A stretch of 64,000 nucleotides of DNA from an uncultured bacterium (GCA_938074205.1 CALJES010000012.1:192080-256079), one strand, 5' to 3'. Positions 148 through 14,616 are shown, counted from the first letter of the stretch. The notes: generated by a model from the letters alone, not told the origin. Program-made: numbers and translations.

Positions 148-2448
148 CTAACCTTTTATTATATGTCTAGAGGCGGCTACAATAGCCTGCCCGAAAGAAA
201 TACAAGCGTCATTTGGAGGTAGGACCCTGTGCATCAGAACATCGAAGCCTGATGCGCGGAGTCGTTCAGAAAGTTTTATCGTTATAATCGCGTTCTGGAA
301 AACGCCTCCCGATAAGGCTATCGTCGAAATACGAGTTCTATTACGAATATCCTCGCACGCTCGGGCAAGCAAGTCAACCAACGAATTGTGAAACCTTGCA
401 GCGACAGTCTGCACAGAGGTGCCACTCAGAAACTCTTCAACTGCACATCTGAAAATTGGAGTGAAATCGAGATTAAGCAGGCCTTCTGCGTAGTACAGCC
501 TTCCTGCATACGATCCTCCTTCTGTTTCATCTACTGCAGCCTCGAGTTCAGCCGCCGGTTGACCTTCATAGGTTCGTTCTCGGCACACACCGAGCGCCGC
601 GGACACGGCATCAAATAGACGCCCCGCGCTGGAAGTCAGAGGCGAGTTGAGACCAGTTTCGAGCTGGCGTTTGATCACGCGAGTTTCTAATTCAGAAAAC
701 TTAATCCCCAACGAATTCGCGATGTCCCAACATTTATCCTGATAGGCGGATTGCAGGTATGCTAAGGCCATTCTGCAGGGATCTCGTATTGACGCTTCGC
801 CTCCGGGCATTCTAACAACAGCAAATCGCCCTACGCGCTCAAAATCTTTAAGATCTGCGAGCAGGAGCTCGCCTCCCCAAACGGTGCCCTCGGTCCCATA
901 TCCGGTACCGTCCAGCGCGATTCCTATGCATCTATCGGTACAGCCGTTTTCGGCTAGGCATGCTGCAACATGCGCGTGGTGATGCTGGACACCAACCCTT
1001 GTATCAACCTGCATTGCCTTCGCATATTGGCTGCTCATGTACGCAGGATGCAGATCGTGGGCAACGATTGCCGGTCGTCTTCCAAACAGCGCCAGAAAGT
1101 GGTCCACGGCATACTTGAAATAGTCGAGTGTTTCGGCGGTATCAAGATCCCCTATGTGCTGGCTAACTACAGCCTGCTGCTCCCACGCTAAACAGAAAGT
1201 GTTCTTTTGCTCGGCGCCAACTGCTAAAATCTCTGGAGACTCGAACGGCAGCTGTATAGCCTCAGGAACGTAGCCTCGGGCACGCCGAATTAGGACGGGT
1301 TCCTCAGAATAGTCCGCGCGCACGACTGAATCGTCGCAGGGTATGTGAATATCTCGATCATGCATAAGGAATGCATCCGCGAGCCCTGCAAGTTTCTCCC
1401 TTGCGAGTGAATTAGTAAAAACAAGTGGTTCCTCGCTAAGATTGCCGCTCGTCATAACAAGGGCAGCGGGTGAGTACTCCAGCAGCAAAACGTGAAGGGG
1501 AGTGTAGGGTAGCATCACGCCTAGATTCTTGTTCGAGGGTGCTACTTGCTCAGATATGCCAGGTGAGGGTTTCTTTCTTGCCAGTACAATCGGGCGCTGT
1601 CGCGACAGCAAAAGCTCACGTGCCTGCGGTGTTAATTCGCATATGCGCTCTGCTTCCTTAATATCCCTAACCATTATGGCGAACGGCTTTGCGCTTCGGC
1701 CCTTGCGAGATCGAAGCATCCGTACTACCCCGTCACTTCGCGCATCGCACGCGAGATGGAATCCACCAAGACCTTTTATTGCGACGATCCTGCCTTGAAA
1801 CAGCAGTTCTCCGGCTCTGCGCAGTGGCTCGCTTTCGACAATCTCGCCTTCGTTTTCCAGCCATACTCGCGGACCACATTGGGGACACGCTATGGGTTCG
1901 GCGTGGAAGCGCCTATCGTGGGAACTATGGTATTCGGCTGCGCAATCAGTGCACATCGCGAATGAAGCCATTGTGGTGTTGGCTCGGTCGTACGGAACGC
2001 GTCTCACGATAGTGTATCTTGGACCACAGTTCGTACAATTGGTGAAGGCGTAGTGGAACCTTCTGTTCTTTGGATCAGCGATCTCTTGCAAGCACTCTTC
2101 GCATACGGCTATATCGGCTGGTATTACGCATCGACCACCTTCTTCGGCGGTGCTTTCACGTATCTCAAAGTGTGAATAGCCTATTGGGTCGGCATCGAGA
2201 GAACTGACGGAGGTTATTTGAGCTAGCGGCGGAGCCTCGGAAAGGAGCGAGTCGACAAAAGTATCAACATACTCCGGCGAGCCTTCTATTTCTATTTCTA
2301 CGGTACCTGATGTGTTGCGTACCCACCCGCACAATCGATATCGGCTTGCCAACAACGCGACGAACGGTCGAAAGCCCACACCTTGGACAACACCCGACAC
2401 TCGAACAATCTTCCGAACCAAGCGCTCCTTTGGAACACGCACACTCAT
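148..2448 (-). CDS. hypF: [NiFe]-hydrogenase maturation carbamoyltransferase HypF
   Basis: 766 aa. N-terminal acylphosphatase-like domain (VQGVGFRPFV..GWVRNTSGTVEIEIEG). Two CxxC Zn-finger pairs (CEECLQE..CTNCGPRYTI; CTDCAAEY..CPQCGPR). YrdC-like and Kae1/HypF C-terminal domain (GGVFQN). Length and order are typical of HypF. Confidence 0.9.
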   Translation of the reverse strand: MSVRVPKERLVRKIVRVSGVVQGVGFRPFVALLASRYRLCGWVRNTSGTVEIEIEGSPEYVDTFVDSLLSEAPPLAQITSVSSLDADPIGYSHFEIRESTAEEGGRCVIPADIAVCEECLQEIADPKNRRFHYAFTNCTNCGPRYTIVRRVPYDRANTTMASFAMCTDCAAEYHSSHDRRFHAEPIACPQCGPRVWLENEGEIVESEPLRRAGELLFQGRIVAIKGLGGFHLACDARSDGVVRMLRSRKGRSAKPFAIMVRDIKEAERICELTPQARELLLSRQRPIVLARKKPSPGISEQVAPSNKNLGVMLPYTPLHVLLLEYSPAALVMTSGNLSEEPLVFTNSLAREKLAGLADAFLMHDRDIHIPCDDSVVRADYSEEPVLIRRARGYVPEAIQLPFESPEILAVGAEQKNTFCLAWEQQAVVSQHIGDLDTAETLDYFKYAVDHFLALFGRRPAIVAHDLHPAYMSSQYAKAMQVDTRVGVQHHHAHVAACLAENGCTDRCIGIALDGTGYGTEGTVWGGELLLADLKDFERVGRFAVVRMPGGEASIRDPCRMALAYLQSAYQDKCWDIANSLGIKFSELETRVIKRQLETGLNSPLTSSAGRLFDAVSAALGVCRERTYEGQPAAELEAAVDETEGGSYAGRLYYAEGLLNLDFTPIFRCAVEEFLSGTSVQTVAARFHNSLVDLLARACEDIRNRTRISTIALSGGVFQNAIITIKLSERLRASGFDVLMHRVLPPNDACISFGQAIVAASRHIIKG

Positions 2449-2667: not shown

Positions 2668-2743
2668 TGGCTCCCCGGCGTGGACTCGAACCACGAACAT
2701 CCTGGTTAACAGCCAAGCGCTCTGCCAATTGAGCTACCGGGGA
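2668..2743 (-). tRNA. tRNA-Asn (anticodon GTT), CCA encoded
   Basis: Reverse complement folds as a cloverleaf: acceptor TCCCCGG/CCGGGGA, D-arm GCTC-AATTGGCA-GAGC, anticodon stem CTTGG/CCAGG with loop CTGTTAA, T-arm CGTGG-TTCGAGT-CCACG, discriminator G, then CCA. Confidence 0.85.
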
Positions 2744-2811
2744 GCGTTCTCACCGCTATAAATTATACCAACCTTGGCGTTAAAGTGTCAACACTTTCGG
2801 CCAGATCTGCT

Positions 2812-3258
2812 TTATGATACAGCTTCCGCTGATGAGTTAGACTCCTGAGTAGCTCGAATTGCCTCGTCAACGCTTGCGTAGGTTGCGAACACTTGGTTTA
2901 GGCGTGTTATTTTGAGTATGCGATCGATAGGACCGCTGACGTTTATCAGGTTTATACTACCGCCGTTGGGTTTTAGGCGTTTCATCACTGAAAGCAACGT
3001 GCCAAAACCGCTACTATCCATATAACGGACTCCGGACATGTCTATCAGCAAGTGCTTCTCGCCGGAGTCGACCATTTTGTTGACGGCTTCTTTAAACTGC
3101 GGCGCCGTGTAGACGTCTACTTCCCCTTTCACGTCCAGAACCTGCCTGCCGTCTACATTCCTCAATTGTGTTTCGAGACGTATGGTTTCCAACTTGCCGC
3201 CTCCGTCCCCAACGGACATTTCTCCAGCCGTTATATCCGCGCGACTCCTGTTTGCCAA
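2812..3258 (-). CDS. STAS-domain anti-sigma-factor antagonist (SpoIIAA-like); N-terminus probably shorter than the ORF
   Basis: YTAPQFKEAV..LLIDMSGVRYMDSSGFGTLLSV..INLINVSGPIDRILKITRLNQVF is a typical SpoIIAA/STAS fold with the phosphorylatable Ser motif DSSG. Last gene of the lar-containing minus-strand operon (24-nt gap to the upstream gene). Confidence 0.7.
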   Translation of the reverse strand: MANRSRADITAGEMSVGDGGGKLETIRLETQLRNVDGRQVLDVKGEVDVYTAPQFKEAVNKMVDSGEKHLLIDMSGVRYMDSSGFGTLLSVMKRLKPNGGSINLINVSGPIDRILKITRLNQVFATYASVDEAIRATQESNSSAEAVS

Positions 3259-3282
3259 GTATACCCAGATTGGAATCCATTG

Positions 3283-3981
3283 TCAACCGCTCGCCGCGCG
3301 CAAAGCATGTGACACGACCAAAGCGTCAAATGTTAACGCAGCAGCCCAGTGAAGTATGAAACATGGCACAAACGACTTCGCTCGCAGTGCAATCCAGCCC
3401 AGAATTACACCTGCTCCGAATGAACCGACAAATTCCGGGACGGGCTTGCCAAGGTGCAATAGGCTGAATGCCGCCGCCTGGATCACTATCGCCCACCACC
3501 CTATCGCTCTGGATAACCCAAGCAGCAGATATCCGCGAAAAAAGAACTCCCAACAAAACAAATACATACCGTAGCTTAATTCCGCAAACGCCATCAGCCA
3601 GGGAGCACTTACCCAAGGGTTTGTCTTGGGGTATGAAGCGAACACTTTGCCAAACTCCGGTTGGAATCGTCTAAATATTGGGTAGTAATCTTGAAAAACC
3701 TCCCACCTGCTAGCTGGGACCATAAGCGTTGCTAAACCGGCAAGCAGCAGCACTAGTACCAGCCAAAGCCGTCTGAACCCGCCGAGTGCCAAACCGAAGT
3801 GGGCAGGTTCTTCACGGAAAATAAAGAGGATAGAAAGGATCGGAACCCAAAACAAACCCATAAGGTTCCCTACTATATACTGGTTATACGACACGGCCGA
3901 GCGGTTGAAACTATACAACCAGGTAACTACCCCCGAACCGACTATAGCTACGACGATAGCCACAAACCTGTTCCTACTCAA
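3283..3981 (-). CDS. CPBP-family (CAAX/Abi) intramembrane glutamic endopeptidase
   Basis: Polytopic membrane protein carrying the motif trio WEFFFRG (EExxxR), SLLHLGK (FxxxH) and HWAAAL (HxxxN/D-like). Its start overlaps the upstream amidohydrolase stop by 8 nt. Confidence 0.65.
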   Translation of the reverse strand: MSRNRFVAIVVAIVGSGVVTWLYSFNRSAVSYNQYIVGNLMGLFWVPILSILFIFREEPAHFGLALGGFRRLWLVLVLLLAGLATLMVPASRWEVFQDYYPIFRRFQPEFGKVFASYPKTNPWVSAPWLMAFAELSYGMYLFCWEFFFRGYLLLGLSRAIGWWAIVIQAAAFSLLHLGKPVPEFVGSFGAGVILGWIALRAKSFVPCFILHWAAALTFDALVVSHALRAASG

Positions 3982-5287
3982 CTTTCAGACACTCCTCTAA
4001 TTCCGCCAATATGTGCGCTCTGTCCAAGCTTTGCAGCTTGCCGCTCTTTACTACATCTTCGCCGTTCACCACCACAGTGTGAACTTTTCCGACGTTTCTG
4101 GATAGGATTGCCAGCCATATGTCTTCGGTCGGAAGCACGTCGCTCAAGTCGACAGTGACGAAGTCTGCGCTTTTCCCTGGTTCAAGCGTCCCGATTCGAC
4201 TGTCTAGACCCAGTGCTCGAGCCCCACCAATGGTTGCAAGCTCAATAACATCTTTTGCGGACACCACAGCCGCATCCTGAGCACGTGCCCTCTGCATAGC
4301 TAGTGCACTCCGCATTTCCTCAAAAAAGTCAAATCGCAAACACGTTCCGGCACTGTCGGTACCTAAACCAACCACTGCGCCCGACCAGACAAGCTCAGCC
4401 ATGGGGGAGATGCCACAGCCAAGAAATGCGTTTGATTTCGGGCAGTGTGCAACTCCGACTCCTGAACGCGCAACCAACTCGATCTCCGATGCGGTCAGAG
4501 CCACACAGTGCGCCACACAAACTCCCTTCCTCAAGAGACCCACATCGTGGAGATACTCCGCAGGCTTCATACCAGTGGTCATCGGTTCATACCCCATACG
4601 CCGCCGCAGATCGGCAATCGGACCTGTTCCATTAAGCAAATAGTCTATTTCTGCAGTAGTTTCCGCAAGATGGATAGCGATAGGTACTCCCTTTCCACAA
4701 GCCTCAGCGCAGAGCTCCAAGATTTCTCGGTTGGAGGTATAAACCGAGTGGGGAGATAAGCCGACAGTTGCGAGCCGTGGATACTTATTTCGGAGCTCTT
4801 GTGCAGCAGAAAGCTTCTCATCGAAAACACGGGCGTAATCGGCTCTAGCGCTTTGGCCGAACAGTTCCAAGTAAACAATCCCCTTCAGCCCGATTAACTG
4901 CAGCGCCTCGGCGGACAAACCCGTAAACGAGGAGTCTGCGACGCACGTCACGCCTGACAACGCGAGCTCGGCTGCACCAAGAAGCGCAGACAGACGGACG
5001 ATTTCCATATGGGGCTTTCGGGTCCAGTTGAAAGCGGCCGACTCAATCCACTCCCATAGATTCTTGCCATCCAACGAGTTGCGAGTGAATGTGTAGTCTA
5101 AGTGACAATGTGTATTTACGAACCCAGGCAGCAGTGCGCACTTACCAAAGTCGGTCACCGGTTCTTCTGGTAAAGAAGCGCTCAGACCATTTCCGACTTG
5201 TAGTATTCGGCCGCTACGCACAAGCACCTCACCGTTCGAGATGACTCGACCGTCCATAGGGATTACATATGCAGCTCGGTAGATCAT
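3974..5287 (-). CDS. Metal-dependent amidohydrolase of the MtaD/SAH-deaminase/chlorohydrolase family
   Basis: 437 aa. N-terminal beta-sandwich (YVIPMDGRVISNGEVLV), metal-binding FVNTHCHLDYT, and later HCV..HCPKSN and GTDS motifs of the amidohydrolase superfamily. ATGA overlap with the larC stop. Confidence 0.75.
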   Translation of the reverse strand: MIYRAAYVIPMDGRVISNGEVLVRSGRILQVGNGLSASLPEEPVTDFGKCALLPGFVNTHCHLDYTFTRNSLDGKNLWEWIESAAFNWTRKPHMEIVRLSALLGAAELALSGVTCVADSSFTGLSAEALQLIGLKGIVYLELFGQSARADYARVFDEKLSAAQELRNKYPRLATVGLSPHSVYTSNREILELCAEACGKGVPIAIHLAETTAEIDYLLNGTGPIADLRRRMGYEPMTTGMKPAEYLHDVGLLRKGVCVAHCVALTASEIELVARSGVGVAHCPKSNAFLGCGISPMAELVWSGAVVGLGTDSAGTCLRFDFFEEMRSALAMQRARAQDAAVVSAKDVIELATIGGARALGLDSRIGTLEPGKSADFVTVDLSDVLPTEDIWLAILSRNVGKVHTVVVNGEDVVKSGKLQSLDRAHILAELEECLKVE

Positions 5288-6573
5288 CGGTCACAAACAG
5301 GGGGTAACGGCGGCTGAGAAGCATAGAAAGCCGCAATCGCCGCATTTTGAACCATCTTTAGGGGGACGTCGTGGCGAGTAGCCGCGGATCTACAGTCGTC
5401 GTATTCAGGTTGAGCATTGACTATCCGCCCTGCCTTTCGGGCTACCTTCATCTTGACCGGACCAAAAGGTGTGTCTACCGTCAGTAGTTCGCGCGCGAGG
5501 CAGAAGCGCTTTCTGTAGTCGACGCGAATACCAATAGTCGAGGTTTCTTCAAACAATACATCACTAAGCCGATCCACCGACTCCGGAGAACATATCACCG
5601 ATACGAGCACTGCCGGTCGATTCTTTTTCATGTGGATGGGCACCAGATATACGTCCAGCGCGCCTTCAGCAAACAGCCTGTCCATTAGGAGCTCATATAC
5701 CTGCGGCGACATATCGTCGATGTTAGTCTCCAGGACTGCAACTGTCTCCAGTTCGCTGCTGTTTGGTTGTTCTTGTGCTCGGTGTCGGTACTCCGCATTG
5801 CAATCTGAACTCTCGCGGCCGACCTCGTCGCCAATAATGACGCGCAGGACGTTCGGAACATCGAGGTCCATCTTTCCAGCGCCCCAACCTACTGAGGTGA
5901 TCATCATCGCTGGCATAGGGCCAAACGATTTGGCAAGTACGGCAAGTATTGCAGCACCGGTGGGAGTAACTATTTCTCCCTCGATACCAAGCTCGCGCCA
6001 AGGCGCGTTTTTGAGCAGCTCAAGCGTAGCGGGAGCTGGTAGCGGGAGCTGGCCGTGACGGGTCTTTACAGAACCATGGAAAGTCGGGATAGCACTTGCG
6101 TATACATGCCGCACTTGGAGCAGATCCAGGCATATACATGTTCCCACGATGTCAATAATAGTGTCTATCGCGCCGAGTTCATGAAAATGGATTCTTTCGA
6201 CTGGCACAGAGTGTATCTTCGCTTCCACCTCCGCCAGTCGCGAAAAGACTGCCAACGAATTGGATTTTACCCCGTTCGGCAGGTCGCTGCTTTCAATTAT
6301 TTGCCTAATCTGATCGATACCGCGTTCAGTGTGCGTGTCGTTCGCAATAATGGATACAGATGTAGCACTTACTCCGCGTTTAACAACCTTCTCAGTCTCA
6401 AGCTTCCAACCTTGAAGTCTCAATTTGGCAAGCTGAGATTTCAGTGCTTCAACCTCGACTCCTGCGTCGATAAGCGCTCCAAGCGCCATATCACCGCTTA
6501 TACCGCAAAACAGATCAAAGTAAGCAACTTTCATCGCATATTCTCTCGCATTTGTATCCGGCTTGCCGGCCAC
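5284..6573 (-). CDS. larC: Nickel-pincer cofactor nickel insertase LarC (DUF111 family); likely true start at MKVAYFD
   Basis: MKVAYFDLFCGISGDMALGALIDAGV matches the LarC N-terminus; C-terminal CTP-binding half. Encoded between larB and the amidohydrolase. Confidence 0.8.
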   Translation of the reverse strand: MAGKPDTNAREYAMKVAYFDLFCGISGDMALGALIDAGVEVEALKSQLAKLRLQGWKLETEKVVKRGVSATSVSIIANDTHTERGIDQIRQIIESSDLPNGVKSNSLAVFSRLAEVEAKIHSVPVERIHFHELGAIDTIIDIVGTCICLDLLQVRHVYASAIPTFHGSVKTRHGQLPLPAPATLELLKNAPWRELGIEGEIVTPTGAAILAVLAKSFGPMPAMMITSVGWGAGKMDLDVPNVLRVIIGDEVGRESSDCNAEYRHRAQEQPNSSELETVAVLETNIDDMSPQVYELLMDRLFAEGALDVYLVPIHMKKNRPAVLVSVICSPESVDRLSDVLFEETSTIGIRVDYRKRFCLARELLTVDTPFGPVKMKVARKAGRIVNAQPEYDDCRSAATRHDVPLKMVQNAAIAAFYASQPPLPPVCDR

Positions 6574-6599
6574 TCAGCTCTAGAATTGAAATGCCGCGC

Positions 6600-7358
6600 T
6601 TAGGTGTTGATCATATGAGCAAGGTAGCCGGCGCCGAAACCGTTATCTATGTTGACGACTGCTACGCCGACTGCGCACGTGTTGAGCATCGCCAACAGCG
6701 CTGCAAGCCCGCCGAAATTAGCACCATAGCCGATGCTGGTCGGCACTGCTATCACCGGACGTCTCACCAAGCCGCCTACCACGCTGGCTAATGCCCCTTC
6801 CATGCCCGCTACGACTATAAGCACGTTTGCTTTGCAGATTCTGTCCCTTTGTCCAAGCAAACGGTGAAGTCCAGCAACGCCTACGTCGTAAGCACGCTCA
6901 ACCCGGCTTCCCAATACCGCAGCAGTCACCGCAGCCTCCTCTGCTACCGGAATGTCTGCTGTGCCGCCAGTGAGCACTAGAATATACTTCTGTTCGCGTG
7001 CTAGCTCTTCCTCAGAACGGGCCGGCTGTCCGACGATTATTATCCGCGCTTCTTCCTTATATTGAGCCTCAGGGATTCGAGAACGCACATATTCGAAGAT
7101 ATCACGCCCAGCCCGTGTGGCGAGAATACACCGACTTTGTGCCGAGAGGCGCTTAAGGATCTCGCCGACCTGTTCAGGTGTTTTGCCTTGACAAAAGACG
7201 ACTTCTGGAAAACCTTTTCTGATCTCGCGGTGGCTGTCTATTTTGGCGAAACCCAGGTCCTCATACGGGAGAATGCGCAGCTTGTCTAAGGCCTCCTCGA
7301 CTGAAAGTTTGCCGTCTTTTACGTCCTCAAGCAAAGTGCGTAACCTATCCAAATCCAC
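6600..7358 (-). CDS. larB: Pyridinium-3,5-biscarboxylic acid mononucleotide synthase LarB (PurE-like)
   Basis: MDLDRLRTLLEDVKDGKLSVEEALDKLRILPYEDLGFAKIDSHRE is the characteristic LarB N-terminal domain, followed by a PurE-like fold (ILVLTGGTADIPVAEEA..VVAGMEGAL). Confidence 0.8.
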   Translation of the reverse strand: MDLDRLRTLLEDVKDGKLSVEEALDKLRILPYEDLGFAKIDSHREIRKGFPEVVFCQGKTPEQVGEILKRLSAQSRCILATRAGRDIFEYVRSRIPEAQYKEEARIIIVGQPARSEEELAREQKYILVLTGGTADIPVAEEAAVTAAVLGSRVERAYDVGVAGLHRLLGQRDRICKANVLIVVAGMEGALASVVGGLVRRPVIAVPTSIGYGANFGGLAALLAMLNTCAVGVAVVNIDNGFGAGYLAHMINT

Positions 7359-7385
7359 CCAGATCCTCCCAGCAACTCACAAGTG

Positions 7386-8282
7386 CTATCGATCAGCATC
7401 GGCTGATCGTTCAATGCACTGGTTCAGGCTTCCACTGCGATAGCTCTCGAGGTCCAGAGTGACAAACGCGTAACCCAGAGCTTTCAATTCGCTTGCAATT
7501 CGCTGTCTTACGTCCGAATTCAGAGCGTGCGTGAAATCGTCTTCTGCGACTTCAATCCGGGCCGTATTTCCATGGTGCCGTACTCTGAACTGCGAAAAAC
7601 CTAGCTTTGCGAGCACGTCTTCTGCGCGTTCTACTCGTCTAAGCAGTTCTTGGGTAAGGGTCGTGCCGTAAGGTATGCGGGAGGCCAAACACGCACGCGA
7701 GGGCTTGTTCCATGTCGGAAGACCAAGCTTCCGCGAAATGCTTCGGACACGGTCTTTGCCAATACCAAGCTCCTTTAACGGACTGCGAACACCAAGTTCA
7801 GATAGAGCTTGCAAGCCGGGGCGATAATCTCCGATGTCGTCCGCGTTGGTGCCGTCGATCACATAAGCGTATCCTTGGGTTATGGCGATATCGCGCAAAA
7901 GTGTGAATATCATCTTCTTGCAGTGATAGCAACGATCGACAGGATTGCTCTTTACGGCAGGATTCTCGAGCGGATTAGTCTGAACGCGTATTAGGCGCAT
8001 CTCGAATTCCTGCGCCTGCGAAACCGCTTCGTCTAGTTCTCGAGTTGACATTAGAGGTGAATCAACTAACACACAAACGGTTCTGTCTCCCAGCACTTCC
8101 GCAGCAGCCCTAGCAACGAGCGTGCTGTCTACTCCGCCGGAGTACGCAACGACTACACTCCTCAAACTTTCTATAAGCTGCTTTAACCGATTATAGTCAT
8201 TCATCGCTGCATCAACTATACCTGACGCGTTTAGAAGTGTCAAAGATGTCTTGAAGAAACAGACCAGGCTATGAAAACTCAA
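7386..8282 (-). CDS. larE: ATP-dependent sacrificial sulfur transferase LarE (PP-loop); ORF start is TTG, real start probably the internal MNDYNRL
   Basis: PP-loop VVVAYSGGVDSTLVA and catalytic-Cys region RCYHCK, with the overall LarE architecture. First gene of the larE-larB-larC operon. Confidence 0.8.
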   Translation of the reverse strand: MSFHSLVCFFKTSLTLLNASGIVDAAMNDYNRLKQLIESLRSVVVAYSGGVDSTLVARAAAEVLGDRTVCVLVDSPLMSTRELDEAVSQAQEFEMRLIRVQTNPLENPAVKSNPVDRCYHCKKMIFTLLRDIAITQGYAYVIDGTNADDIGDYRPGLQALSELGVRSPLKELGIGKDRVRSISRKLGLPTWNKPSRACLASRIPYGTTLTQELLRRVERAEDVLAKLGFSQFRVRHHGNTARIEVAEDDFTHALNSDVRQRIASELKALGYAFVTLDLESYRSGSLNQCIERSADADR

Positions 8283-8326: not shown

Positions 8327-11212
8327 TTGCCAAAATCAATGGGATGTAGGGTTGGTGATATGTCATTCGCCGAAGAATATGAACTGAGAATGCATGGTTT
8401 AAAAAGAGCTCAAACAAGTGCTGCGGCGCCAATGGAAAGACTGAAATGCGAAATAGAGTTTGCACGAAGCTTTGCGGAGCTGTTCCCCGAGAAGCAAGAG
8501 GAATGGCAAAAACTAATTCTAGAGGCATTGGACCTTGTGGGGAACGCGATTTCGCGAAGGGGAGCAATCAATTTCGAAAACATTGTGCGAAAAGCAGAGC
8601 AGCTACTCGCGCCAATAGGTAAAGTGGCAAAAGAGTATACCATCCATTGCTGTGGACATGCCCATATTGACATGAACTGGCTGTGGCCGTGGCAAGAAAC
8701 AGTCAACGTTACGCATGACACGTTCCTAACCGTCGACAAGTTGATGGATGAGTTTCCTGAGTTCCGATTTTCACAGAGCCAGGCATCTGTGTACATCGCT
8801 ATGGAGCAGTACTGCCCTGAAGTGTTCCGTATGATCAAGAGGCGCGTCCGCCAGGGCAAGTGGGATGTGACAGCCAGTATGTGGGTAGAAGGTGACAAAA
8901 ACATTGCCTCTGGCGAGGCGCTTTGTCGTCATCTTTTGTATACGCGGGCATATTTCAAAGACAGGTTTGGCCTCGAGCCAGAGAATGTTAAGATAGATTG
9001 GTCACCCGATACCTTTGGGCATGCGCGGACAATACCGTCGATAATATCTCGAGGAGCTGTAACTCGGTATTACTTCTGTCGCACGGGACCGGGTCCCTGG
9101 CTGTTTAAATGGCGAGCTCCCGACGGATCGGAAGTTCTCGCCTACAATGACAAGGGTGGCTACAATGGGCAAATAGATCCAGATGTTATGCGTCATCTTT
9201 TCTGTTGGTATGTTAAAGAGACGGGCCTCAAGGACTTTATGTTCATGTACGGCGTAGGTGACCACGGCGGCGGCCCTACTAGAGCAGATCTTCGCAAGTT
9301 CCGCGAGATATCGAAATGGCCTATATTCCCAACAGTCAAGCTGAGCACGACCGACGAGTTCTATTCGGCAGTTGAAAAAGCTAATCCAAAGTTGCCGGTG
9401 ATCGAGAAAGACTTGAATTTCACTTTTGAAGGTTGCTACACGTCGCAGAGCAGGATAAAGCGTGCGAATCGCATCAGCGAAATCGTGCTGCCGGAGTCGG
9501 AAACCGCTGCTCTAATTGCCGGATCTGTCTCAGGTATGCCGTACCCGCAAGATACTCTAGTTCGTTGTTGGCGACACACCCTGTTCAATCATTTCCATGA
9601 CATACTTCCAGGGTCGGGTGTTCATGCTACTTACGATTATTCTGAGGGGCTTTTCCAAGAAATCCAGGCTGCTACAGGCGCCATTCGCACTAGGGCTCTG
9701 CGTGCTTTGGCGGACCGTGTGGATACCGCCAGTGCTGCGCAGTGCAGAGTGACGCCGTTCGGTGGTGGTTTAGGCGACGGATTGGGTGCAGGTGCGGGGG
9801 ATTCAGGTATTCCGGGCGGAGTAACCGCACGAAACGCGGGAGCTCTTTGTGCCGAGCCGGTCGTGGTATACAACCAAAAACCTTGGCCTCGCGCAGATGT
9901 CGTGTACGCGAAAGTTTGGAACAAGGAACTGCAGGATGACCGCGTAGTCGTGCGAGATTCATCCGGCAACGACTTCAAGGGACAGATAGTTCAGAGAGGC
10001 CATTATTGGGGTCACTCGTTTGCCACCGTGGCGTTTCAAGCAGAAGTGCCGGCGTTAGGCTACAAGGTGTACGCTATCGACTGTGCTTCTGAGCCCGTGC
10101 ACGCAGAAGGTGCGCGGATCGATCGCTTCCTGCCGGACGGTACTGAGACGATGATAGCAGAAATCAACGAGCGTGGTATTCTGGAGAACGAGTATCTGCG
10201 TGTCGAGATTGACTCTGCATCAGGTGCCATAGCTCACCTTATCGATAAGGAAACCGGTTTTGACTACGTGCCTGAGGGACTACTTATGGGCGTTCTGGAA
10301 GCCTATCAAGAAGTTCCTCATGGCATGAGCGCATGGGTAATCGGGCAAATAAAGGAAGTTGAACCGCTTGTTGACGGAGGCGCTTTGAGGATCACACAGC
10401 GGGGACCAAACCGGGTGGCTGTGCAGTGCAGTAGAAAATGGCGGGATTCCACGATTTCGGTTGAGATAGCACTCAACGCAGGATCGCGCCTTGTAGACTT
10501 CACGCTGCGGACCAGATGGGTGGAGCGCGGATCTCCGGAGACAGGGGTTCCCATGCTCCGCGTCGCATTCCCAGTCAACGTTCAGAACGGTACGGCGACT
10601 TACGAGATTCCATTCGGCGCACAGGTCAGGCCACAGAGCGAGCAGGAAGTGCCCGCTCTAAAATGGGCAGATGTGTCCGATGACAACTACGGTGTGACCT
10701 TAGTCAATAACTGTAAGTATGGGCATTCGTGCAACGAGGGTGTTCTGAGGTTGACGCTGATCAGATCAAGCTATGAACCGGACCCGCTTCCGGAAATTGC
10801 CGATCATGAAATCAGATACGGCATTATACCTCACAAGGGCAAGTGCAATGTGGTGGCAGCGACACGAGCAGGCGAGGAATTTAATTCACCTATGGCGGTT
10901 GTAAGCGCCCCTGTACAGTCTGGTGAGCTTCCTCCAGAAAAGAGCTTTGCCGAAGTTCTGACGCCCAACGTGTTTGTCTCAGCTATCAAGAAAGCGGAAG
11001 ATTCGAATGCGCTTGTGGTGAGAATGTTCGAGGTTGAGGGCAAAGACACCGAAGCTAAACTGCGACTGAGTGGGCTGGTGAAGCCAGGGGCTAAGGCTGT
11101 GGAGACAGACCTGCTAGAGCGACCCGTCAAGAAAAACACTGCCAATATTCAGGGCGACGTGTTGACGGTTAGAATCCCAGCGTTCGGTATTGCCACCGTC
11201 AAAATAGGGTAA
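8327..11212 (+). CDS. Glycoside hydrolase family 38 alpha-mannosidase (ORF begins at a TTG; true start likely ATG 8339 or 8360)
   Basis: 961 aa. GH38 N-terminal signature HCCGHAHIDMNWLWPWQET, a central alpha-mannosidase middle domain and a C-terminal beta-sandwich. Contains an unusual Gly-rich insertion GGGLGDGLGAGAGDSGIPGG. Confidence 0.85.
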   Translation: MPKSMGCRVGDMSFAEEYELRMHGLKRAQTSAAAPMERLKCEIEFARSFAELFPEKQEEWQKLILEALDLVGNAISRRGAINFENIVRKAEQLLAPIGKVAKEYTIHCCGHAHIDMNWLWPWQETVNVTHDTFLTVDKLMDEFPEFRFSQSQASVYIAMEQYCPEVFRMIKRRVRQGKWDVTASMWVEGDKNIASGEALCRHLLYTRAYFKDRFGLEPENVKIDWSPDTFGHARTIPSIISRGAVTRYYFCRTGPGPWLFKWRAPDGSEVLAYNDKGGYNGQIDPDVMRHLFCWYVKETGLKDFMFMYGVGDHGGGPTRADLRKFREISKWPIFPTVKLSTTDEFYSAVEKANPKLPVIEKDLNFTFEGCYTSQSRIKRANRISEIVLPESETAALIAGSVSGMPYPQDTLVRCWRHTLFNHFHDILPGSGVHATYDYSEGLFQEIQAATGAIRTRALRALADRVDTASAAQCRVTPFGGGLGDGLGAGAGDSGIPGGVTARNAGALCAEPVVVYNQKPWPRADVVYAKVWNKELQDDRVVVRDSSGNDFKGQIVQRGHYWGHSFATVAFQAEVPALGYKVYAIDCASEPVHAEGARIDRFLPDGTETMIAEINERGILENEYLRVEIDSASGAIAHLIDKETGFDYVPEGLLMGVLEAYQEVPHGMSAWVIGQIKEVEPLVDGGALRITQRGPNRVAVQCSRKWRDSTISVEIALNAGSRLVDFTLRTRWVERGSPETGVPMLRVAFPVNVQNGTATYEIPFGAQVRPQSEQEVPALKWADVSDDNYGVTLVNNCKYGHSCNEGVLRLTLIRSSYEPDPLPEIADHEIRYGIIPHKGKCNVVAATRAGEEFNSPMAVVSAPVQSGELPPEKSFAEVLTPNVFVSAIKKAEDSNALVVRMFEVEGKDTEAKLRLSGLVKPGAKAVETDLLERPVKKNTANIQGDVLTVRIPAFGIATVKIG

Positions 11213-11484
11213 CAACTCTTCAAAGCTCGGGGAACCGGCGGTTGGACTCAGTGTTTTGAGCGGCCGACCGGTTCCTCAAAATCTTCCTGCCTCTTGTAAG
11301 AACCGGCAAGCAAACTGTAGTCAGTGCGGAGCGAATCAGCGCTTTGCGTAGAGTCTCGGGTTGTGTACACAGCTAATTCACGATCCGGTGTCCACTTCGG
11401 TGTGAATGGAGTTTCCCGTGTTTTTGGCGTTCGGTTGCAGAGTGGTGAGTCATTTTTTTACAATAGTCTAATGAACGTGGGCTT

Positions 11485-12234
11485 ATGCTCCGAAAAACAC
11501 CGAGGTGCGAAATGAGTAAGCGACATTTTCTCTTGTTGGTGCTGCTGTTGGTGCTCTCGATCCAACCTGGCTTCTCGCTCGTTTCGGTAAACGACCAGCG
11601 CAAGCCGACATCTCCGACCAAGGTACTGATGGAAGTCGGCGGACCTTTTCACGACAATCCGGCTTTGTATGAGTTGCTGAAGGGAAAGCTCGAAGCTACA
11701 GGTAGATTCGTGCTTACAATAACCGACAACCGCGATGAACTGTCAAAACCTGCTATAGACAAGTACGACGTGGTGTTAATCTACACCACTGATGGAGTAC
11801 TTACTGAGCCTCAGGAAAAAGGGCTCATTAGCTTCGTTGAGGACGGTAAAGGCGTTGTAGGCATTCACTCAGCCACAGACTCATTCAAGAATTCGGATGC
11901 TTACTGGAAAATGATGTGCGGTAGATTTGCCGGTCACGGATCTGGTACGTTCAAAGTCAAAATCACGGGCAAGAGCCACGCGATCGTAAGAGGGATGTCT
12001 GGCTTCGAAATCACGGATGAAACTTATAGGCATAGCTGGCATCCCGAGTCAAAACCTATAATACTTATGCGTCGGGAGGAAGACAACGAGCCGGTATCGT
12101 GGGTGCAGTACTACGGCAAGGGGCGCGTATTTGTAACTGGTCTTGGTCACGGAAAACCGGCGTGGGAAAACTCGGCATTCCAAGAGCTCATTGAGCGCGC
12201 TCTTGACTGGGCTGCTGGCCGTCTCAATCCCTAG
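11485..12234 (+). CDS. Secreted ThuA-like (class-I glutamine-amidotransferase-like) protein
   Basis: Signal peptide MSKRHFLLLVLLLVLSIQPGFSL, then a ThuA/trehalose-utilisation-like fold (GVVGIHSATDSF..WVQYYGKGRVFVTGLGH). Confidence 0.55.
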   Translation: MLRKTPRCEMSKRHFLLLVLLLVLSIQPGFSLVSVNDQRKPTSPTKVLMEVGGPFHDNPALYELLKGKLEATGRFVLTITDNRDELSKPAIDKYDVVLIYTTDGVLTEPQEKGLISFVEDGKGVVGIHSATDSFKNSDAYWKMMCGRFAGHGSGTFKVKITGKSHAIVRGMSGFEITDETYRHSWHPESKPIILMRREEDNEPVSWVQYYGKGRVFVTGLGHGKPAWENSAFQELIERALDWAAGRLNP

Positions 12235-12296
12235 CGCATCAAGCATTCGCCACATTAGTATTCAATTGCAATATTTCAGAGGGGGTAACTTAAGTA

Positions 12297-13706
12297 ATGA
12301 ACGAATTGTCTTCTCTTGCACGTCCTCGGGTTGTCCCACCGCTGGACACTGAGTTTGCTCCTGCAGCTCTTGCGCTGCGCGAGTTCACAAATGCAGTCAA
12401 GCAATCGGGGCGTGTCGCAGACCTTTTTATCGCGTTAGAGCGCGGCGACGGGCAGATCAGCGTATACAAGACTTGCTGCTTCGAAGACTCTGCAGATGCA
12501 CAATCCATCAATTGCCAGTATGCAGAGCGGCTGGTCAAGTTTCTCTTGTGGCGGAGTGGCGGCTGGAAAATAATTGTTGGAGGGCCAACAAGCATCGGCA
12601 ATTACATCAAGACAGCTTATGCGCCGGACGGTATTCGTGCGTGGGATGCTGAGTTCATGTCTGGCGTATATGAGAAGCCATTTACTGTGGAAGTCACGGA
12701 TGTGCAGGGCGTTCCGGAGGCAAACGAAGGAACTGTGCGTTTGGGGGGCCACCTGGATGGCTGTCGTATCGGTTTTGATTTGGGAGCCACTGACAGAAAG
12801 GTGGCTGCAGTTATAGATGGACAAACGGTGTTCACTGAAGAAGTAGTCTGGAACCCCAGAGATGCGTCCGACCCCAGCTATCACTACAACGAAATCAATT
12901 CAGCATTGAAAGCTGCCGCGGCTCACATGCCTCGCGTAGATGCAATAGGCGGCAGTGCAGCCGGAATCTATATCAACAACCGTCCCCGAGTTGCATCCCT
13001 GTTCCGCGGCGTGCCCAAGGAACTGTTCGAGACTAGAATAGCCAATCTGTTTCTGGACCTCCAAAAGGAATGGGGAGGTGTCCCGTTTGAAGTTGTAAAC
13101 GATGGTGAGGTCACGGCATTGGCCGGATCAATGGCGCTCGGCGACGGAGCGGTATTGGGAATCGCAATGGGTTCAAGCGAAGCTGGAGGTTATGTAACAC
13201 CTAAAAGGGAGATAACTACTTGGCTGAATGAGCTAGCATTTTGCCCTGTGGATTACAATCCAAACGCTCCTATCGATGAGTGGTCGGGAGACTTTGGATG
13301 CGGTGTGCAGTACTTCTCCCAGCAAGCTGTGTTCCGTCTGGCTGAGAAAGCGCAGATATCCATTGATCCGAGCCTAGGTCCGGCTGACAAACTCAAATGG
13401 CTACAGACCTTGCTTCGCAACGGAAATATGAAGGCGAGGAGTGTCTGGGAGACTATAGGTATCTATACCGGCTACGGAATTGCCCATTATGCTAACTTCT
13501 ATGAGTTGAGGCATGTGTTGATACTTGGCCGAGTAACTTCCGGAGACGGCGGCGGTATAATAATCGAAAAAGCCCAGGAAGTACTTCGCAAGGAATTCCC
13601 TGAACTTGCGGAGCGTGTCAAATTGCATCTGCCAGACGAATCGAGCAGAAGAGTGGGGCAGGCAGTGGCTGCCGCAAGCTTGCCTGTGATACAAAGGTAC
13701 AAATAA
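12297..13706 (+). CDS. ASKHA-superfamily (ROK/BadF-type) sugar-kinase-like protein
   Basis: 469 aa with two glycine-rich ATPase-like loops (GFDLGATDRKVAAVIDG; IGGSAAGIYINN) as in ROK/glucokinase-like proteins. The N-terminal ~150 aa is atypical. Confidence 0.4.
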   Translation: MNELSSLARPRVVPPLDTEFAPAALALREFTNAVKQSGRVADLFIALERGDGQISVYKTCCFEDSADAQSINCQYAERLVKFLLWRSGGWKIIVGGPTSIGNYIKTAYAPDGIRAWDAEFMSGVYEKPFTVEVTDVQGVPEANEGTVRLGGHLDGCRIGFDLGATDRKVAAVIDGQTVFTEEVVWNPRDASDPSYHYNEINSALKAAAAHMPRVDAIGGSAAGIYINNRPRVASLFRGVPKELFETRIANLFLDLQKEWGGVPFEVVNDGEVTALAGSMALGDGAVLGIAMGSSEAGGYVTPKREITTWLNELAFCPVDYNPNAPIDEWSGDFGCGVQYFSQQAVFRLAEKAQISIDPSLGPADKLKWLQTLLRNGNMKARSVWETIGIYTGYGIAHYANFYELRHVLILGRVTSGDGGGIIIEKAQEVLRKEFPELAERVKLHLPDESSRRVGQAVAAASLPVIQRYK

Positions 13707-13725
13707 TGAGTCAGAGGTATGTAAC

Positions 13726-14574
13726 ATGCAACTCCACAAGCCGACATCTGATATATTTGTTCCTGATGGACTGCCCGCAGATGAAGCCGTAGCACGAACT
13801 ACGCATATGTGCGTGGGTGCCCATCAAGATGATATAGAAATAGCAGCGACGCATGGCATACTTGAGTGTTTCGGCAAGTCTGACAAGTGGTTTATGGGTG
13901 TTGTGGTTACCAATGGTAGCGGTAGCCCCCGTGACGATCTATACGCCGACTATACAGATGAGCAAATGATGGCTGTGAGGCGCGTGGAACAGAGAAAGGC
14001 AGCCTACATCGGCGAGTACTGCGCTCAGGCGTTCCTCGATTACTCGAGCGCGGAAATTAAGGATCCGACTAATGACTTTGTTGTCGAAGATCTGAAACAA
14101 CTGCTCATTCTTGCCCGCCCGAAAATCGTCTACACGCATAACCTAGCGGACAAACACGATACCCACGTTGCGGTGGCGCTGCGAGTGATAAAAGCGATTA
14201 GAGAACTGCCTAAAGATGCGCGGCCTGAAAAGCTTCTGGGAGGTGAGATTTGGAGAGATCTTGACTGGTTGTGCGACGAGGACAAGACAGTTCTCGATGT
14301 CTCCGCGCACGAGAACCTGTCTGCCGCCCTGCTGGGGGTATTTGATTCGCAGATATGCGGGGGCAAGCGCTACGACTTAGCTACCATGGGACGCAGGCGT
14401 GCACACGCCACTTACTTCCAGTCGCACGGTGTCGATGTGTCGACTGCACTGACTTTTGCAATGGACCTGACTCCGCTGATGCAGGATGAATCGCTCAGCC
14501 CAGAAGTTTACGTGAGGCGTTTCATCGACAAATTCGCGGAAGAAGTGGACAGCCGCATTCGTAAGCTCTCTTAG
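13726..14574 (+). CDS. PIG-L/LmbE-family N-acetylglucosaminyl deacetylase
   Basis: Zinc-binding AHQDDIEIA (AHPDDE-like) near the N-terminus and a later HxxH region (HNLADKHDTH). Confidence 0.6.
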   Translation: MQLHKPTSDIFVPDGLPADEAVARTTHMCVGAHQDDIEIAATHGILECFGKSDKWFMGVVVTNGSGSPRDDLYADYTDEQMMAVRRVEQRKAAYIGEYCAQAFLDYSSAEIKDPTNDFVVEDLKQLLILARPKIVYTHNLADKHDTHVAVALRVIKAIRELPKDARPEKLLGGEIWRDLDWLCDEDKTVLDVSAHENLSAALLGVFDSQICGGKRYDLATMGRRRAHATYFQSHGVDVSTALTFAMDLTPLMQDESLSPEVYVRRFIDKFAEEVDSRIRKLS

Positions 14575-14616
14575 AGAGCCTTAGCCGGACTGTTTCGGAA
14601 TGGAGGAGCGATAACT

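What the first reader, a model, noticed from the sequence alone, without database searches (positions are those of the whole stretch)
2812..8282. larE-larB-larC fused into one tight operon with an MtaD-like amidohydrolase, a CPBP intramembrane protease and a STAS antagonist, with no larA
Six minus-strand genes are separated by only 27, 26, -4 (ATGA), -8 and 24 nt. The nickel-pincer nucleotide (NPN) cofactor biosynthesis trio is normally found next to LarA-type racemase/epimerase genes. Here the genes translationally coupled to larC are a metal-dependent amidohydrolase of the adenosine/SAH-deaminase-chlorohydrolase family, a CPBP/CAAX-type membrane protease and an anti-sigma antagonist. This could mean an NPN-dependent enzyme of a non-LarA type, a salvage/modification step on the cofactor's nucleotide moiety, or a regulated membrane-associated maturation pathway.
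Basis: partly seen in the sequence, partly recalled or inferred. Interest (0 to 1): 0.62.

Follow-up and report, generated by a model that had tools for sequence, protein, structure and literature searches.

The report
lar operon fused to unrelated module
A nickel-cofactor (larE-larB-larC) operon of an Armatimonadota bacterium has been joined by a rearrangement to an older deaminase / CPBP-like / STAS gene trio that occurs without lar genes in most relatives, so the neighbourhood looks like an ordinary operon fusion, not evidence for a new nickel-pincer enzyme.

Summary
The six minus-strand genes exist at the stated coordinates and belong to the stated families. The organism is Armatimonadota, not Planctomycetota or Verrucomicrobiota. 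Three of the five quoted spacings depend on taking the longest ORFs. The cluster consists of two separable synteny blocks. [GH38 | larE-larB-larC] occurs without the trio in L173, and stand-alone lar operons occur in L172 and L174. [Amidohydrolase, CPBP-like, STAS] occurs without lar in at least nine other Armatimonadota lineages, often followed by lexA-hemC. The two blocks touch in only one clade of the amidohydrolase tree, so the linkage traces to a single evolutionary event. No alignment column separates lar-linked from lar-less amidohydrolases. The enzyme has the intact metal site of a cog0402 nucleobase deaminase, not an NAD-like scaffold such as the known non-LarA users of the cofactor. 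STAS has its own promoter, conserved in six of seven loci. The likely units are therefore larE-larB-larC-amidohydrolase-CPBP, then STAS, then tRNA-Asn. No LarA, aldo-keto reductase or ornithine cyclodeaminase lies in the window or near any lar locus examined. A genome-wide search for LarA could not be run. lar genes without larA are already known in hundreds of prokaryotes. Interest is low to moderate.

The parts
8215..8243 (-). Sigma-70-type promoter of the lar operon (TTGACA-17-TATAGT). Its -10 hexamer ends about 10 nt before the larE ATG, so the mRNA is nearly leaderless.
   Evidence: The same element (TTGACA-17/18-TATAGT or TATATT) sits at the same position in L002 and L082.
7386..8204 (-). 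larE, the ATP-dependent sulfur insertase of nickel-pincer nucleotide synthesis. It is of the CxxC...C ([4Fe-4S]) type.
   Evidence: TIGR00268 scores 325 bits against a cut-off of 150. The sequence shows SGGVDS, C-Y-H-C and A-C-L-A-S-R. The motif is defined in PMC9283937.
6600..7358 (-). larB, the NaAD carboxylase/hydrolase.
   Evidence: NF033503 scores 293 bits against a cut-off of 175. A GGGAGG Shine-Dalgarno sequence precedes the GTG start.
5284..6534 (-). larC, the CTP-dependent nickel-inserting cyclometallase, with LarC1 and LarC2 fused in one ORF.
   Evidence: PF01969 scores 487 bits. LarC1 scores 214 against 90 and LarC2 159 against 50. The ATG 6534 start agrees with the gene call in L001.
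3974..5287 (-). Mononuclear-metal deaminase of the cog0402 / TRZ-ATZ / MtaD-like group, substrate unknown. It is the first gene of the ancestral trio, and its start overlaps the larC stop (ATGA).
3283..3981 (-). CPBP/Rce1-like membrane protein with non-canonical motifs: W144-E145-x3-R149 instead of EExxxR, F172-x3-H176 kept, and H211-x3-A215 instead of HxxxN. It overlaps the amidohydrolase stop by 8 nt.
   Evidence: The canonical residues are described in PMC11980579.
3258..3286 (-). Separate sigma-70-type promoter for the STAS gene (TTGACA-17-TATACT). Its -35 hexamer overlaps the CPBP stop codon.
   Evidence: The element is conserved in L001, L082, L168, L169, L170 and L086, which is 6 of 7 loci.
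2812..3219 (-). STAS-domain anti-sigma-factor antagonist with an invariant DSSG phospho-serine motif. It is the most conserved gene of the trio.
   Evidence: TIGR00377 scores 91 bits against a cut-off of 53. Alignment. Identities to orthologs are 53-82%.
2668..2791 (-). tRNA-Asn(GTT) at 2668..2743 with its own perfect TTGACA-18-TATAAT promoter at 2791..2762. It marks the downstream end of the cluster.
8327..11212 (+). Divergently transcribed GH38 alpha-mannosidase, the conserved partner of the lar block.
   Evidence: Orthologs lie next to lar in L002 (92% identity), L082 (85%), L168 (81%) and L173 (65%, without the trio).
148..2448 (-). hypF, a [NiFe]-hydrogenase maturation gene downstream of the tRNA. 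It is not part of the cluster. Its position is specific to this lineage.
   Evidence: TIGR00143 scores 826 bits. hypCDE and hypA follow in L001. In L168 the downstream neighbours are lexA and hemC instead.

Best explanation
Two unrelated, older gene blocks became neighbours through one rearrangement in an ancestor of this Armatimonadota clade.

Block 1 is the divergent pair GH38 | larE-larB-larC. It makes the nickel-pincer nucleotide from NaAD: LarB carboxylates and hydrolyses, a [4Fe-4S]-type LarE inserts two sulfurs, and LarC inserts nickel. The cofactor serves an enzyme encoded elsewhere in the genome.

Block 2 is a phylum-wide trio. It holds a cog0402 metal-dependent nucleobase-type deaminase of unknown substrate, a CPBP-like membrane protein that has lost two of the four catalytic residues, and a phosphorylatable STAS antagonist with its own promoter.

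After the fusion the spacer between larC and the deaminase shrank: 123 nt in L088, 1 nt in L168, and an ATGA overlap in the window, L002 and L082. In this window the promoter at 8243..8215 therefore drives one five-gene mRNA, larE-larB-larC-deaminase-CPBP. STAS and tRNA-Asn are read from their own promoters.

Shown: the gene identities, the separability of the blocks, their distribution, and the conserved promoter motifs. Inferred: the transcription units, the direction of the rearrangement, and the absence of a biochemical link between the nickel-pincer nucleotide and the trio.
For: 1. The trio occurs without lar genes in L084/85, L086/87, L169, L170, L171, L006, L051, L090 and L005, with varied upstream genes. 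Relaxed tblastn at E<=5 finds no lar remnants there.
2. lar occurs without the trio in L172 and L174 (larEBC) and in L173 (GH38 | larBC).
3. The GH38 gene next to lar is orthologous in the window, L002, L082, L168 and L173, at 65-92% identity. lexA-hemC follows the trio in lar-less L084 and L169 and in lar-linked L168. The larC/deaminase junction is therefore the seam between two synteny blocks.
4. All lar-linked deaminases fall in one clade, P0001-P0010, of the neighbour-joining tree.
5. No alignment column is fixed in the lar-linked clade with a residue absent from lar-less orthologs. Seventy columns are invariant, including H60, H62, H206, E209, H260 and D311.
6. The deaminase model (pLDDT 89) best matches MTA/adenosine deaminase homologs, AtzA, isocytosine deaminase, TrzN and guanine deaminase, at TM 0.8-0.87. 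None is an NAD-type scaffold.
7. None of about 150 loci with cog0402 relatives from other phyla carries lar genes.
8. The STAS promoter is conserved in 6 of 7 loci and the larE promoter in 3 loci. No promoter-like site lies in the 250 nt before the deaminase in the window.
9. larBCE without larA is documented for hundreds of prokaryotes. The known non-LarA users are an aldo-keto reductase and an ornithine cyclodeaminase (PMC13524815).
Against: - The larC-deaminase overlap is maintained across genomes whose deaminases share only 64% identity, and near-contiguity holds at 60%. That could reflect selection for co-expression.
- Lar-less trio genomes may carry lar genes elsewhere, so dependence on the cofactor is not strictly excluded.
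- The direction of the event is unresolved: one fusion, or an older linkage lost repeatedly. The same aro-cmk-plsC block precedes lar in L172 and L174 and precedes the trio in L171.
- The consuming enzyme of the cofactor was not found.
- Transcription units are inferred from motifs only.
Confidence: 0.7

Rival explanations
1. The deaminase, with or without the CPBP-like protein, works on the nickel-pincer pathway. It could deaminate the adenine of an adenine-dinucleotide form of the cofactor or of a by-product, salvage the nucleotide moiety, or be a new cofactor-binding enzyme. On this reading the operon fusion reflects biochemical coupling.
For: Translational coupling (ATGA) is kept in the window, L002 and L082, and the gap is 1 nt in L168. 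No LarA, aldo-keto reductase or ornithine cyclodeaminase lies within 10 kb of any lar locus examined. [quoted passage not shown] The nearest solved relatives deaminate adenine nucleosides.
Against: - The trio predates the linkage and is found without lar in at least nine lineages.
- There are no clade-specific residue changes.
- The deaminase has an intact classical metal site and an HxxE motif.
- The ribose-binding Glu84 and Arg136/Arg148 of Tm0936 are not conserved.
- Known cofactor users have NAD-type or LarA folds.
- Only one evolutionary origin of the linkage is seen.
Confidence: 0.08
2. There is no shared chemistry, but the fusion is selectively kept because both modules profit from the same regulation, for example a common growth-phase, anaerobic or metal signal acting at the larE promoter.
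For: The junction tightened from 123 nt to -4 nt within the clade. The larE promoter is conserved. In this lineage hydrogenase maturation genes (hypF, hypCDE, hypA) lie just downstream, giving a local nickel theme.
Against: No regulator site or riboswitch was detected. hyp adjacency is absent in L168. Spacer shrinkage can be neutral genome streamlining.
Confidence: 0.15
3. The deaminase and CPBP genes are transcribed independently from an unrecognised promoter inside the 3' end of larC, so there is not even an operon fusion.
For: The promoter scan covers only consensus sigma-70 sites. Most lar-less loci also show no recognisable promoter before the deaminase, so the scan is insensitive for this gene. 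L088 keeps a 123-nt spacer.
Against: The ATGA overlap leaves no room for termination. No terminator-like or promoter-like site lies at 5287..5540 on the minus strand.
Confidence: 0.07

Closest known systems
larB-larC-larE operons without an adjacent larA (nickel-pincer nucleotide biosynthesis; Desguin et al. 2014; PMC13524815)
   Same: All three biosynthetic genes pass the curated equivalog cut-offs. LarC is a single fused ORF. LarE is the common CxxC...C [4Fe-4S] type. No larA is nearby, as reported for hundreds of prokaryotes.
   Different: Here the operon runs on into two genes of an unrelated module. The consuming enzyme was not identified.
[quoted passage not shown]
   Different: Those are NAD(P)-type oxidoreductase scaffolds, and the AKR case recurs in 427 neighbourhoods. 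This neighbour is a metal-dependent hydrolase linked to lar in one clade only, and the module is otherwise independent of lar.
cog0402 deaminases: MTA/SAH/adenosine deaminases (Tm0936, Cv1032 4F0R, Pa3170 4GBD), 8-oxoguanine/isocytosine deaminase (7WW2), AtzA and TrzN
   Same: The fold matches (TM 0.8-0.87). The HxH, His, His and Asp metal ligands and the HxxE motif are present.
   Different: Identity is only 25-29%. The protein falls below every NCBIfam equivalog cut-off. The Tm0936 residues Glu84, Arg136 and Arg148 are not conserved. A family-specific insert of about 25 residues (GTGPIA...) follows HxxE.
CPBP/Abi (Rce1-like) intramembrane glutamic proteases, including the non-proteolytic regulator Abx1 (PMC3578759)
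   Same: The protein hits Pfam PF02517. The order and spacing of motifs 1, 2 and 4 match, and FxxxH is kept.
   Different: The first Glu of EExxxR is Trp and the Asn of HxxxN is Ala or Ser throughout the family. It is probably not a canonical protease. It may act through protein-protein contacts, as shown for Abx1.
SpoIIAA/RsbV/BldG-type STAS anti-sigma-factor antagonists
   Same: The protein passes TIGR00377, and the DSSG phospho-serine motif is invariant.
   Different: No partner kinase or PP2C phosphatase is in the cluster. The gene is always placed after the deaminase-CPBP pair in Armatimonadota, with its own promoter.

Membership tests
Nickel-pincer nucleotide biosynthesis (LarB/LarC/LarE) | LarE: equivalog score plus the PP-loop SGGxDS motif | tested here: met
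   TIGR00268 scores 325 bits against a cut-off of 150. SGGVDS is in the sequence.
Nickel-pincer nucleotide biosynthesis (LarB/LarC/LarE) | LarE subtype: the CxxC...C motif of [4Fe-4S]-dependent catalytic LarE | tested here: met
   C-Y-H-C and A-C-L-A-S-R are present. The motif is defined in PMC9283937. Cluster binding itself was not tested.
Nickel-pincer nucleotide biosynthesis (LarB/LarC/LarE) | LarB equivalog | tested here: met
   NF033503 scores 293 bits against a cut-off of 175.
Nickel-pincer nucleotide biosynthesis (LarB/LarC/LarE) | LarC with both LarC1 and LarC2 domains | tested here: met
   TIGR00299 scores 214 against 90 and NF052512 scores 159 against 50, in one ORF.
Canonical lar locus (with LarA racemase/epimerase) | A LarA (PF09861) gene next to larBCE | tested here: not met
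   There was no PF09861 hit in 44 window ORFs. tblastn and phmmer with verified LarA found nothing in the window or in 174 loci.
Canonical lar locus (with LarA racemase/epimerase) | A LarA homolog anywhere in the genome | not testable with these tools
Non-LarA nickel-pincer enzymes (NphT-type AKR; NPAD ornithine cyclodeaminase) | An AKR (PF00248) or ornithine cyclodeaminase fold next to larBCE | tested here: not met
   No such Pfam hit was found in the window or in the called genes of L001, L082, L168 and L172-L174.
MTA/SAH deaminase (MtaD / Tm0936 group) | Amidohydrolase fold with HxH, His, His and Asp ligands and an HxxE motif | tested here: met
   H60, H62, H206, E209, H260 and D311 are invariant. 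The fold matches at TM 0.83-0.87.
MTA/SAH deaminase (MtaD / Tm0936 group) | Curated equivalog score | tested here: not met
   NF012037 scores 169 against 779 and NF005557 scores 215 against 522. The best hit of any model is 234 against 540.
MTA/SAH deaminase (MtaD / Tm0936 group) | The ribose-binding Glu84 and the carboxylate-binding Arg136 and Arg148 of Tm0936. The residue roles are recalled from Hermann et al. 2007. | tested here: not met
   In a MAFFT alignment with the verified Tm0936 sequence these positions are variable (Thr in the window protein) or Glu in clade A. The result depends on the alignment.
CPBP / Rce1-like glutamic intramembrane protease | Pfam PF02517 domain | tested here: met
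   The score is 52 bits against a cut-off of 22.4.
CPBP / Rce1-like glutamic intramembrane protease | The four invariant catalytic residues: EExxxR, the His of FxxxH, and HxxxN | tested here: not met
   The motifs are W-E-x3-R and H-x3-[A/S], invariant in 15 orthologs and seen in at least 112 of 120 family members. FxxxH is kept. The reference residues come from PMC11980579.
STAS anti-sigma-factor antagonist | Family score and the phosphorylatable Ser in DSSG | tested here: met
   TIGR00377 scores 91 bits against a cut-off of 53. YMDSSGFG is invariant.
STAS anti-sigma-factor antagonist | A cognate anti-sigma kinase or PP2C phosphatase partner | not tested
   None lies in the cluster or in the called neighbours. 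The rest of the genome is not available.
Known anti-phage defence systems | A match to PADLOC models | tested here: not met
   None of the six proteins gave a hit.

The most novel reading that the evidence does not exclude
In this Armatimonadota clade the cog0402 deaminase, perhaps with its CPBP-like membrane partner, has been recruited to the nickel-pincer pathway. It might deaminate the adenine of an adenine-dinucleotide form of the cofactor or of a pathway nucleotide. That would make it a new accessory or cofactor-tailoring step discovered through operon fusion.
Probability: 0.07. Interest if true: 0.7.

Novelty: new member of a known kind. Interest (0 to 1): 0.25.

Why it matters
Genome neighbourhoods of larBCE are currently the main route to new nickel-pincer enzymes. 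An aldo-keto reductase and an ornithine cyclodeaminase were found this way in 2025-2026. This case shows why a tight, even translationally coupled, neighbour is not enough. The deaminase-CPBP-STAS genes form an older, self-standing module, and the linkage arose once.

If the linkage were functional, it would add a hydrolytic tailoring or salvage step to nickel-pincer chemistry. As it stands, the useful by-products are two. One is a conserved Armatimonadota trio of unknown function whose CPBP member lacks catalytic residues. The other is a clean example of secondary operon fusion with progressive loss of the spacer.

Tried and rejected
- The genome and metagenome scans with the amidohydrolase profile mostly returned 33-42% relatives from Actinomycetota and Acidobacteriota.
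- A PDB sequence search with the CPBP profile gave only a spurious hit (E 0.73), so the catalytic residues could not be mapped residue by residue onto MmRce1.
- PADLOC gave no hits.
- Rfam found only the tRNA, with no riboswitch or leader.
- The supplementary co-occurrence tables of PMC13524815 are not held. The NPAD paper is not held. PMC11770544 says nothing on Armatimonadota or on larA-less genomes.
- I considered that the 161-aa ORF overlapping the deaminase start in L171, or other upstream ORFs in lar-less loci, might be lar remnants. tblastn at E<=5 found none.
- I considered GH38 in L170 and ThuA in L084 as signs of shared upstream synteny. They are paralogs, at 26% and 33% identity.
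- The amidohydrolase-TPR-STAS-topA arrangement in Thermoleophilia might indicate a deep deaminase-STAS link. I left this open as probably class-level synteny.
- A genome-wide search for LarA could not be done.
Full report
**Observation.** Six minus-strand ORFs lie at 7386..8282, 6600..7358, 5284..6573, 3974..5287, 3283..3981 and 2812..3258. Pfam and NCBIfam confirm the families:
- LarE: TIGR00268, 325 bits against a cut-off of 150.
- LarB: NF033503, 293 against 175.
- LarC: LarC1 214 against 90 and LarC2 159 against 50, fused in one ORF.
- An Amidohydro_1 protein.
- An Rce1-like/CPBP protein.
- A STAS anti-sigma-factor antagonist: TIGR00377, 91 against 53.

Three spacings depend on longest-ORF starts.
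- larE most likely begins at ATG 8204, because the upstream codons overlap a TTGACA-17-TATAGT promoter at 8243..8215.
- larC most likely begins at ATG 6534, the start also called in L001 and in orthologs.
- STAS most likely begins at ATG 3219, after a GGAG site. That leaves a 63-nt spacer holding a TTGACA-17-TATACT promoter.

The ATGA overlap of larC with the amidohydrolase and the -8 overlap of the amidohydrolase with the CPBP gene are real. Downstream lie tRNA-Asn(GTT), with a perfect consensus promoter, and then hypF. Upstream, a GH38 mannosidase is transcribed divergently.

**Source organism.** The exact amidohydrolase is on a 161-kb Logan contig and a 417-kb NCBI contig. Every named close homolog is from Armatimonadota.

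**Comparative anatomy.** I placed the six window proteins by tblastn on 174 fetched loci and read the gene calls of 14 loci.
- The amidohydrolase, CPBP and STAS genes stay together, in this order and tightly spaced, across Armatimonadota orthologs down to 35% identity. These loci are L003, L005, L006, L051, L084/85, L086/87, L089, L090, L169 and L170. L171 lacks STAS.
- The upstream neighbours differ from locus to locus: a GFO/IDH/MocA oxidoreductase, a cation-efflux gene, and hypothetical genes.
- Downstream, lexA-hemC is common. It follows the trio in L084, L169 and L168, and L170 has lexA.
- larE-larB-larC lies directly upstream only in the window/L001, L002, L082/83, L168 and L088. In a neighbour-joining tree of 114 amidohydrolase homologs these form one clade, P0001-P0010.
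- lar operons of other Armatimonadota (LarC 54-57% identical) stand alone. L172 and L174 carry larE-larB-larC, and L173 carries GH38 | larB-larC. None has the trio within 10 kb.
- The GH38 gene beside lar is orthologous in the window, L002 (92%), L082 (85%), L168 (81%) and L173 (65%).

The larC/amidohydrolase junction is therefore the seam between two independent synteny blocks, [GH38 | lar] and [trio, lexA-hemC]. Within the clade the spacer at the seam is 123 nt in L088, 1 nt in L168, and -4 nt in the window, L002 and L082. This fits a secondary fusion followed by loss of the spacer.

One caveat applies. The same aro-cmk-plsC block precedes lar in L172 and L174 and precedes the trio in L171. 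An older linkage with repeated loss therefore cannot be excluded. Either way the linkage is dispensable in most lineages.

**Transcription units.**
- A TTGACA-17/18-TATACT element lies in the CPBP-STAS spacer of 6 of 7 loci: L001, L082, L168, L169, L170 and L086. In four of them (L001, L082, L169, L170) its -35 hexamer overlaps the CPBP stop codon.
- The proteins of these loci are only 50-70% identical, so conservation of this non-coding motif argues for a real STAS promoter.
- The larE promoter is conserved in L001, L002 and L082. Its -10 hexamer ends about 10 nt before the ATG, which implies a nearly leaderless mRNA.
- No promoter-like or terminator-like site lies at the larC-amidohydrolase junction.
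- The likely units are larE-larB-larC-amidohydrolase-CPBP, then STAS, then tRNA-Asn. This is inferred from motifs and has not been measured.

**The amidohydrolase.**
- It scores far below every curated equivalog cut-off. The best is 234 bits against 540, and the MtaD model scores 169 against 779.
- The nearest solved relatives by sequence are 3LNP, 7WW2, 4V1X and 4F0R.
- An AlphaFold model (pLDDT 89, pTM 0.90) matches MTA/adenosine deaminase homologs, AtzA, isocytosine deaminase, TrzN and guanine deaminase, at TM 0.8-0.87 and 22-29% identity.
- The metal ligands and the HxxE motif are invariant: H60, H62, H206, E209, H260 and D311.
- I aligned it with Tm0936, whose sequence I verified as identical to 1P1M. 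The ribose-binding Glu84 and Arg136/Arg148 are not conserved. The roles of these residues are from my memory of Hermann et al. 2007. A family-specific insert of about 25 residues follows HxxE.
- A paralogous Armatimonadota clade (P0105-P0117, L004) sits in a different context, alanine dehydrogenase then amidohydrolase then rubrerythrin. It keeps a Glu near that position.
- No alignment column is fixed in the lar-linked clade with a residue absent from lar-less orthologs. There is no sign of neofunctionalisation after the fusion.
- I conclude that it is a classical Zn/Fe-type nucleobase deaminase of unknown substrate.

**The CPBP-like protein.**
- All 15 aligned orthologs, and at least 112 of 120 family members, have W-E-x3-R where canonical CPBP proteases have E-E-x3-R. 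They have H-x3-[S/A] where the canonical motif is H-x3-N. FxxxH is kept.
- The first Glu, acting with the motif-2 His, holds the catalytic water. The His and Asn of HxxxN form the oxyanion hole (PMC11980579).
- The label 'intramembrane protease' is therefore doubtful. A non-proteolytic role has precedent in Abx1, an Abi/CPBP protein that regulates a histidine kinase by direct contact (PMC3578759).

**The STAS protein.** It is the best conserved of the three, at 53-82% identity, and its DSSG phospho-serine motif is invariant.

**The lar genes.** LarE has SGGVDS and the CxxC...C motif of the [4Fe-4S]-dependent, non-sacrificial type (PMC9283937). The NCBIfam name 'sacrificial' probably does not apply.

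**LarA and other cofactor users.**
- No PF09861, PF00248 or ornithine cyclodeaminase hit was found among 44 window ORFs.
- Verified L. plantarum LarA (identical to 5HUQ) found nothing in the window or in 2.24 Mb of held loci, including all lar loci.
- Absence of larA beside lar therefore looks usual in this phylum.
- A genome-wide test could not be run.
- Hundreds of prokaryotes have larBCE without LarA. Two non-LarA users are known, the NphT-type aldo-keto reductases (427 co-occurrences) and an NPAD-dependent ornithine cyclodeaminase. Both have NAD(P)-type scaffolds (PMC13524815).

**Verdict.** The functional interpretation is not supported by comparative evidence. The most likely explanation (0.7) is a single rearrangement that fused a lar operon to an older, independent deaminase / CPBP-like / STAS module, giving a five-gene transcript plus a separately promoted STAS gene. 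A true biochemical link to the nickel-pincer cofactor remains possible but unlikely (about 0.07-0.08). The arrangement is a new member of a known kind, a larA-less lar operon, and its interest is low to moderate.

Noticed in passing
window 2668..2791 (-): tRNA-Asn(GTT) is preceded by a perfect 12/12 sigma-70 consensus promoter (TTGACA-18-TATAAT, with TG before the -10). It lies between the STAS gene and hypF.
   Followed up: partly
window 148..2448 (-); L001 12846..21314: hypF is followed on the source contig by hypC, hypD, hypE and hypA, and then by Mrp / complex-I-like membrane subunits (Proton_antipo_M, Oxidored_q2, NADHdh). A second nickel-cofactor maturation system and a probable membrane-bound [NiFe] hydrogenase therefore lie just downstream of lar in this lineage. 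This is not so in L168.
   Followed up: partly
window 8204..8243 (-): The -10 hexamer of the larE promoter ends about 10 nt before the ATG. This spacing is conserved in L002 and L082 and suggests a leaderless or nearly leaderless lar mRNA.
   Followed up: partly
L008, L009, L014, L033 and about 50 other loci, 10001..14800: In Thermoleophilia and Gaiellales (Actinomycetota), the closest non-Armatimonadota amidohydrolase relatives (37-41% identity) are followed by a 217-aa TPR protein, a STAS antagonist and topA. A STAS gene lies within 2.5 kb downstream in 56 of 167 loci. Whether this is a deep deaminase-STAS link or only class-level synteny is unexplained.
   Followed up: partly
L004 8880..12020: A paralogous Armatimonadota amidohydrolase clade (P0105-P0117) sits between an alanine dehydrogenase, with an ATGA overlap, and a rubrerythrin-like gene. 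It has no CPBP or STAS neighbour. It keeps a Glu near the Tm0936 ribose-binding position and may be the housekeeping MTA/SAH-type deaminase.
   Followed up: partly
window 47251..55908 (+): A giant 2885-aa ORF. It was not examined.
   Followed up: no
window 33950..35602 (-), 44954..47008 (+), 61521..62438 (-), 12297..13706 (+): ORFs of 550, 684, 305 and 469 aa have no significant Pfam family. The 469-aa gene is conserved next to ThuA and GH38 in L002 and L082.
   Followed up: no
window 58545..60554 (+): A 669-aa protein made of DUF6785 (523 bits) and DUF6784. It lies next to a GlcNAc 2-epimerase-like gene, in a window rich in glycoside hydrolases (GH38, GHL10, heparinase II/III, BNR sialidase-like, GH2).
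   Followed up: no
one search hit list (P0128, P0131, P0133, P0181, P0218): Some LarC homologs are 596-693 aa fusion proteins. They carry an extra PF08032 (SpoU substrate-binding) or PF01709 (YebC-type regulator) domain.
   Followed up: no
L171, L172, L174: The same DAHP synthase, prephenate dehydrogenase, cytidylate kinase and acyltransferase block precedes the lar operon in L172 and L174. In L171 it precedes the deaminase-CPBP pair. This may be a recurrent rearrangement site, or a trace of an older lar-trio proximity.
   Followed up: partly
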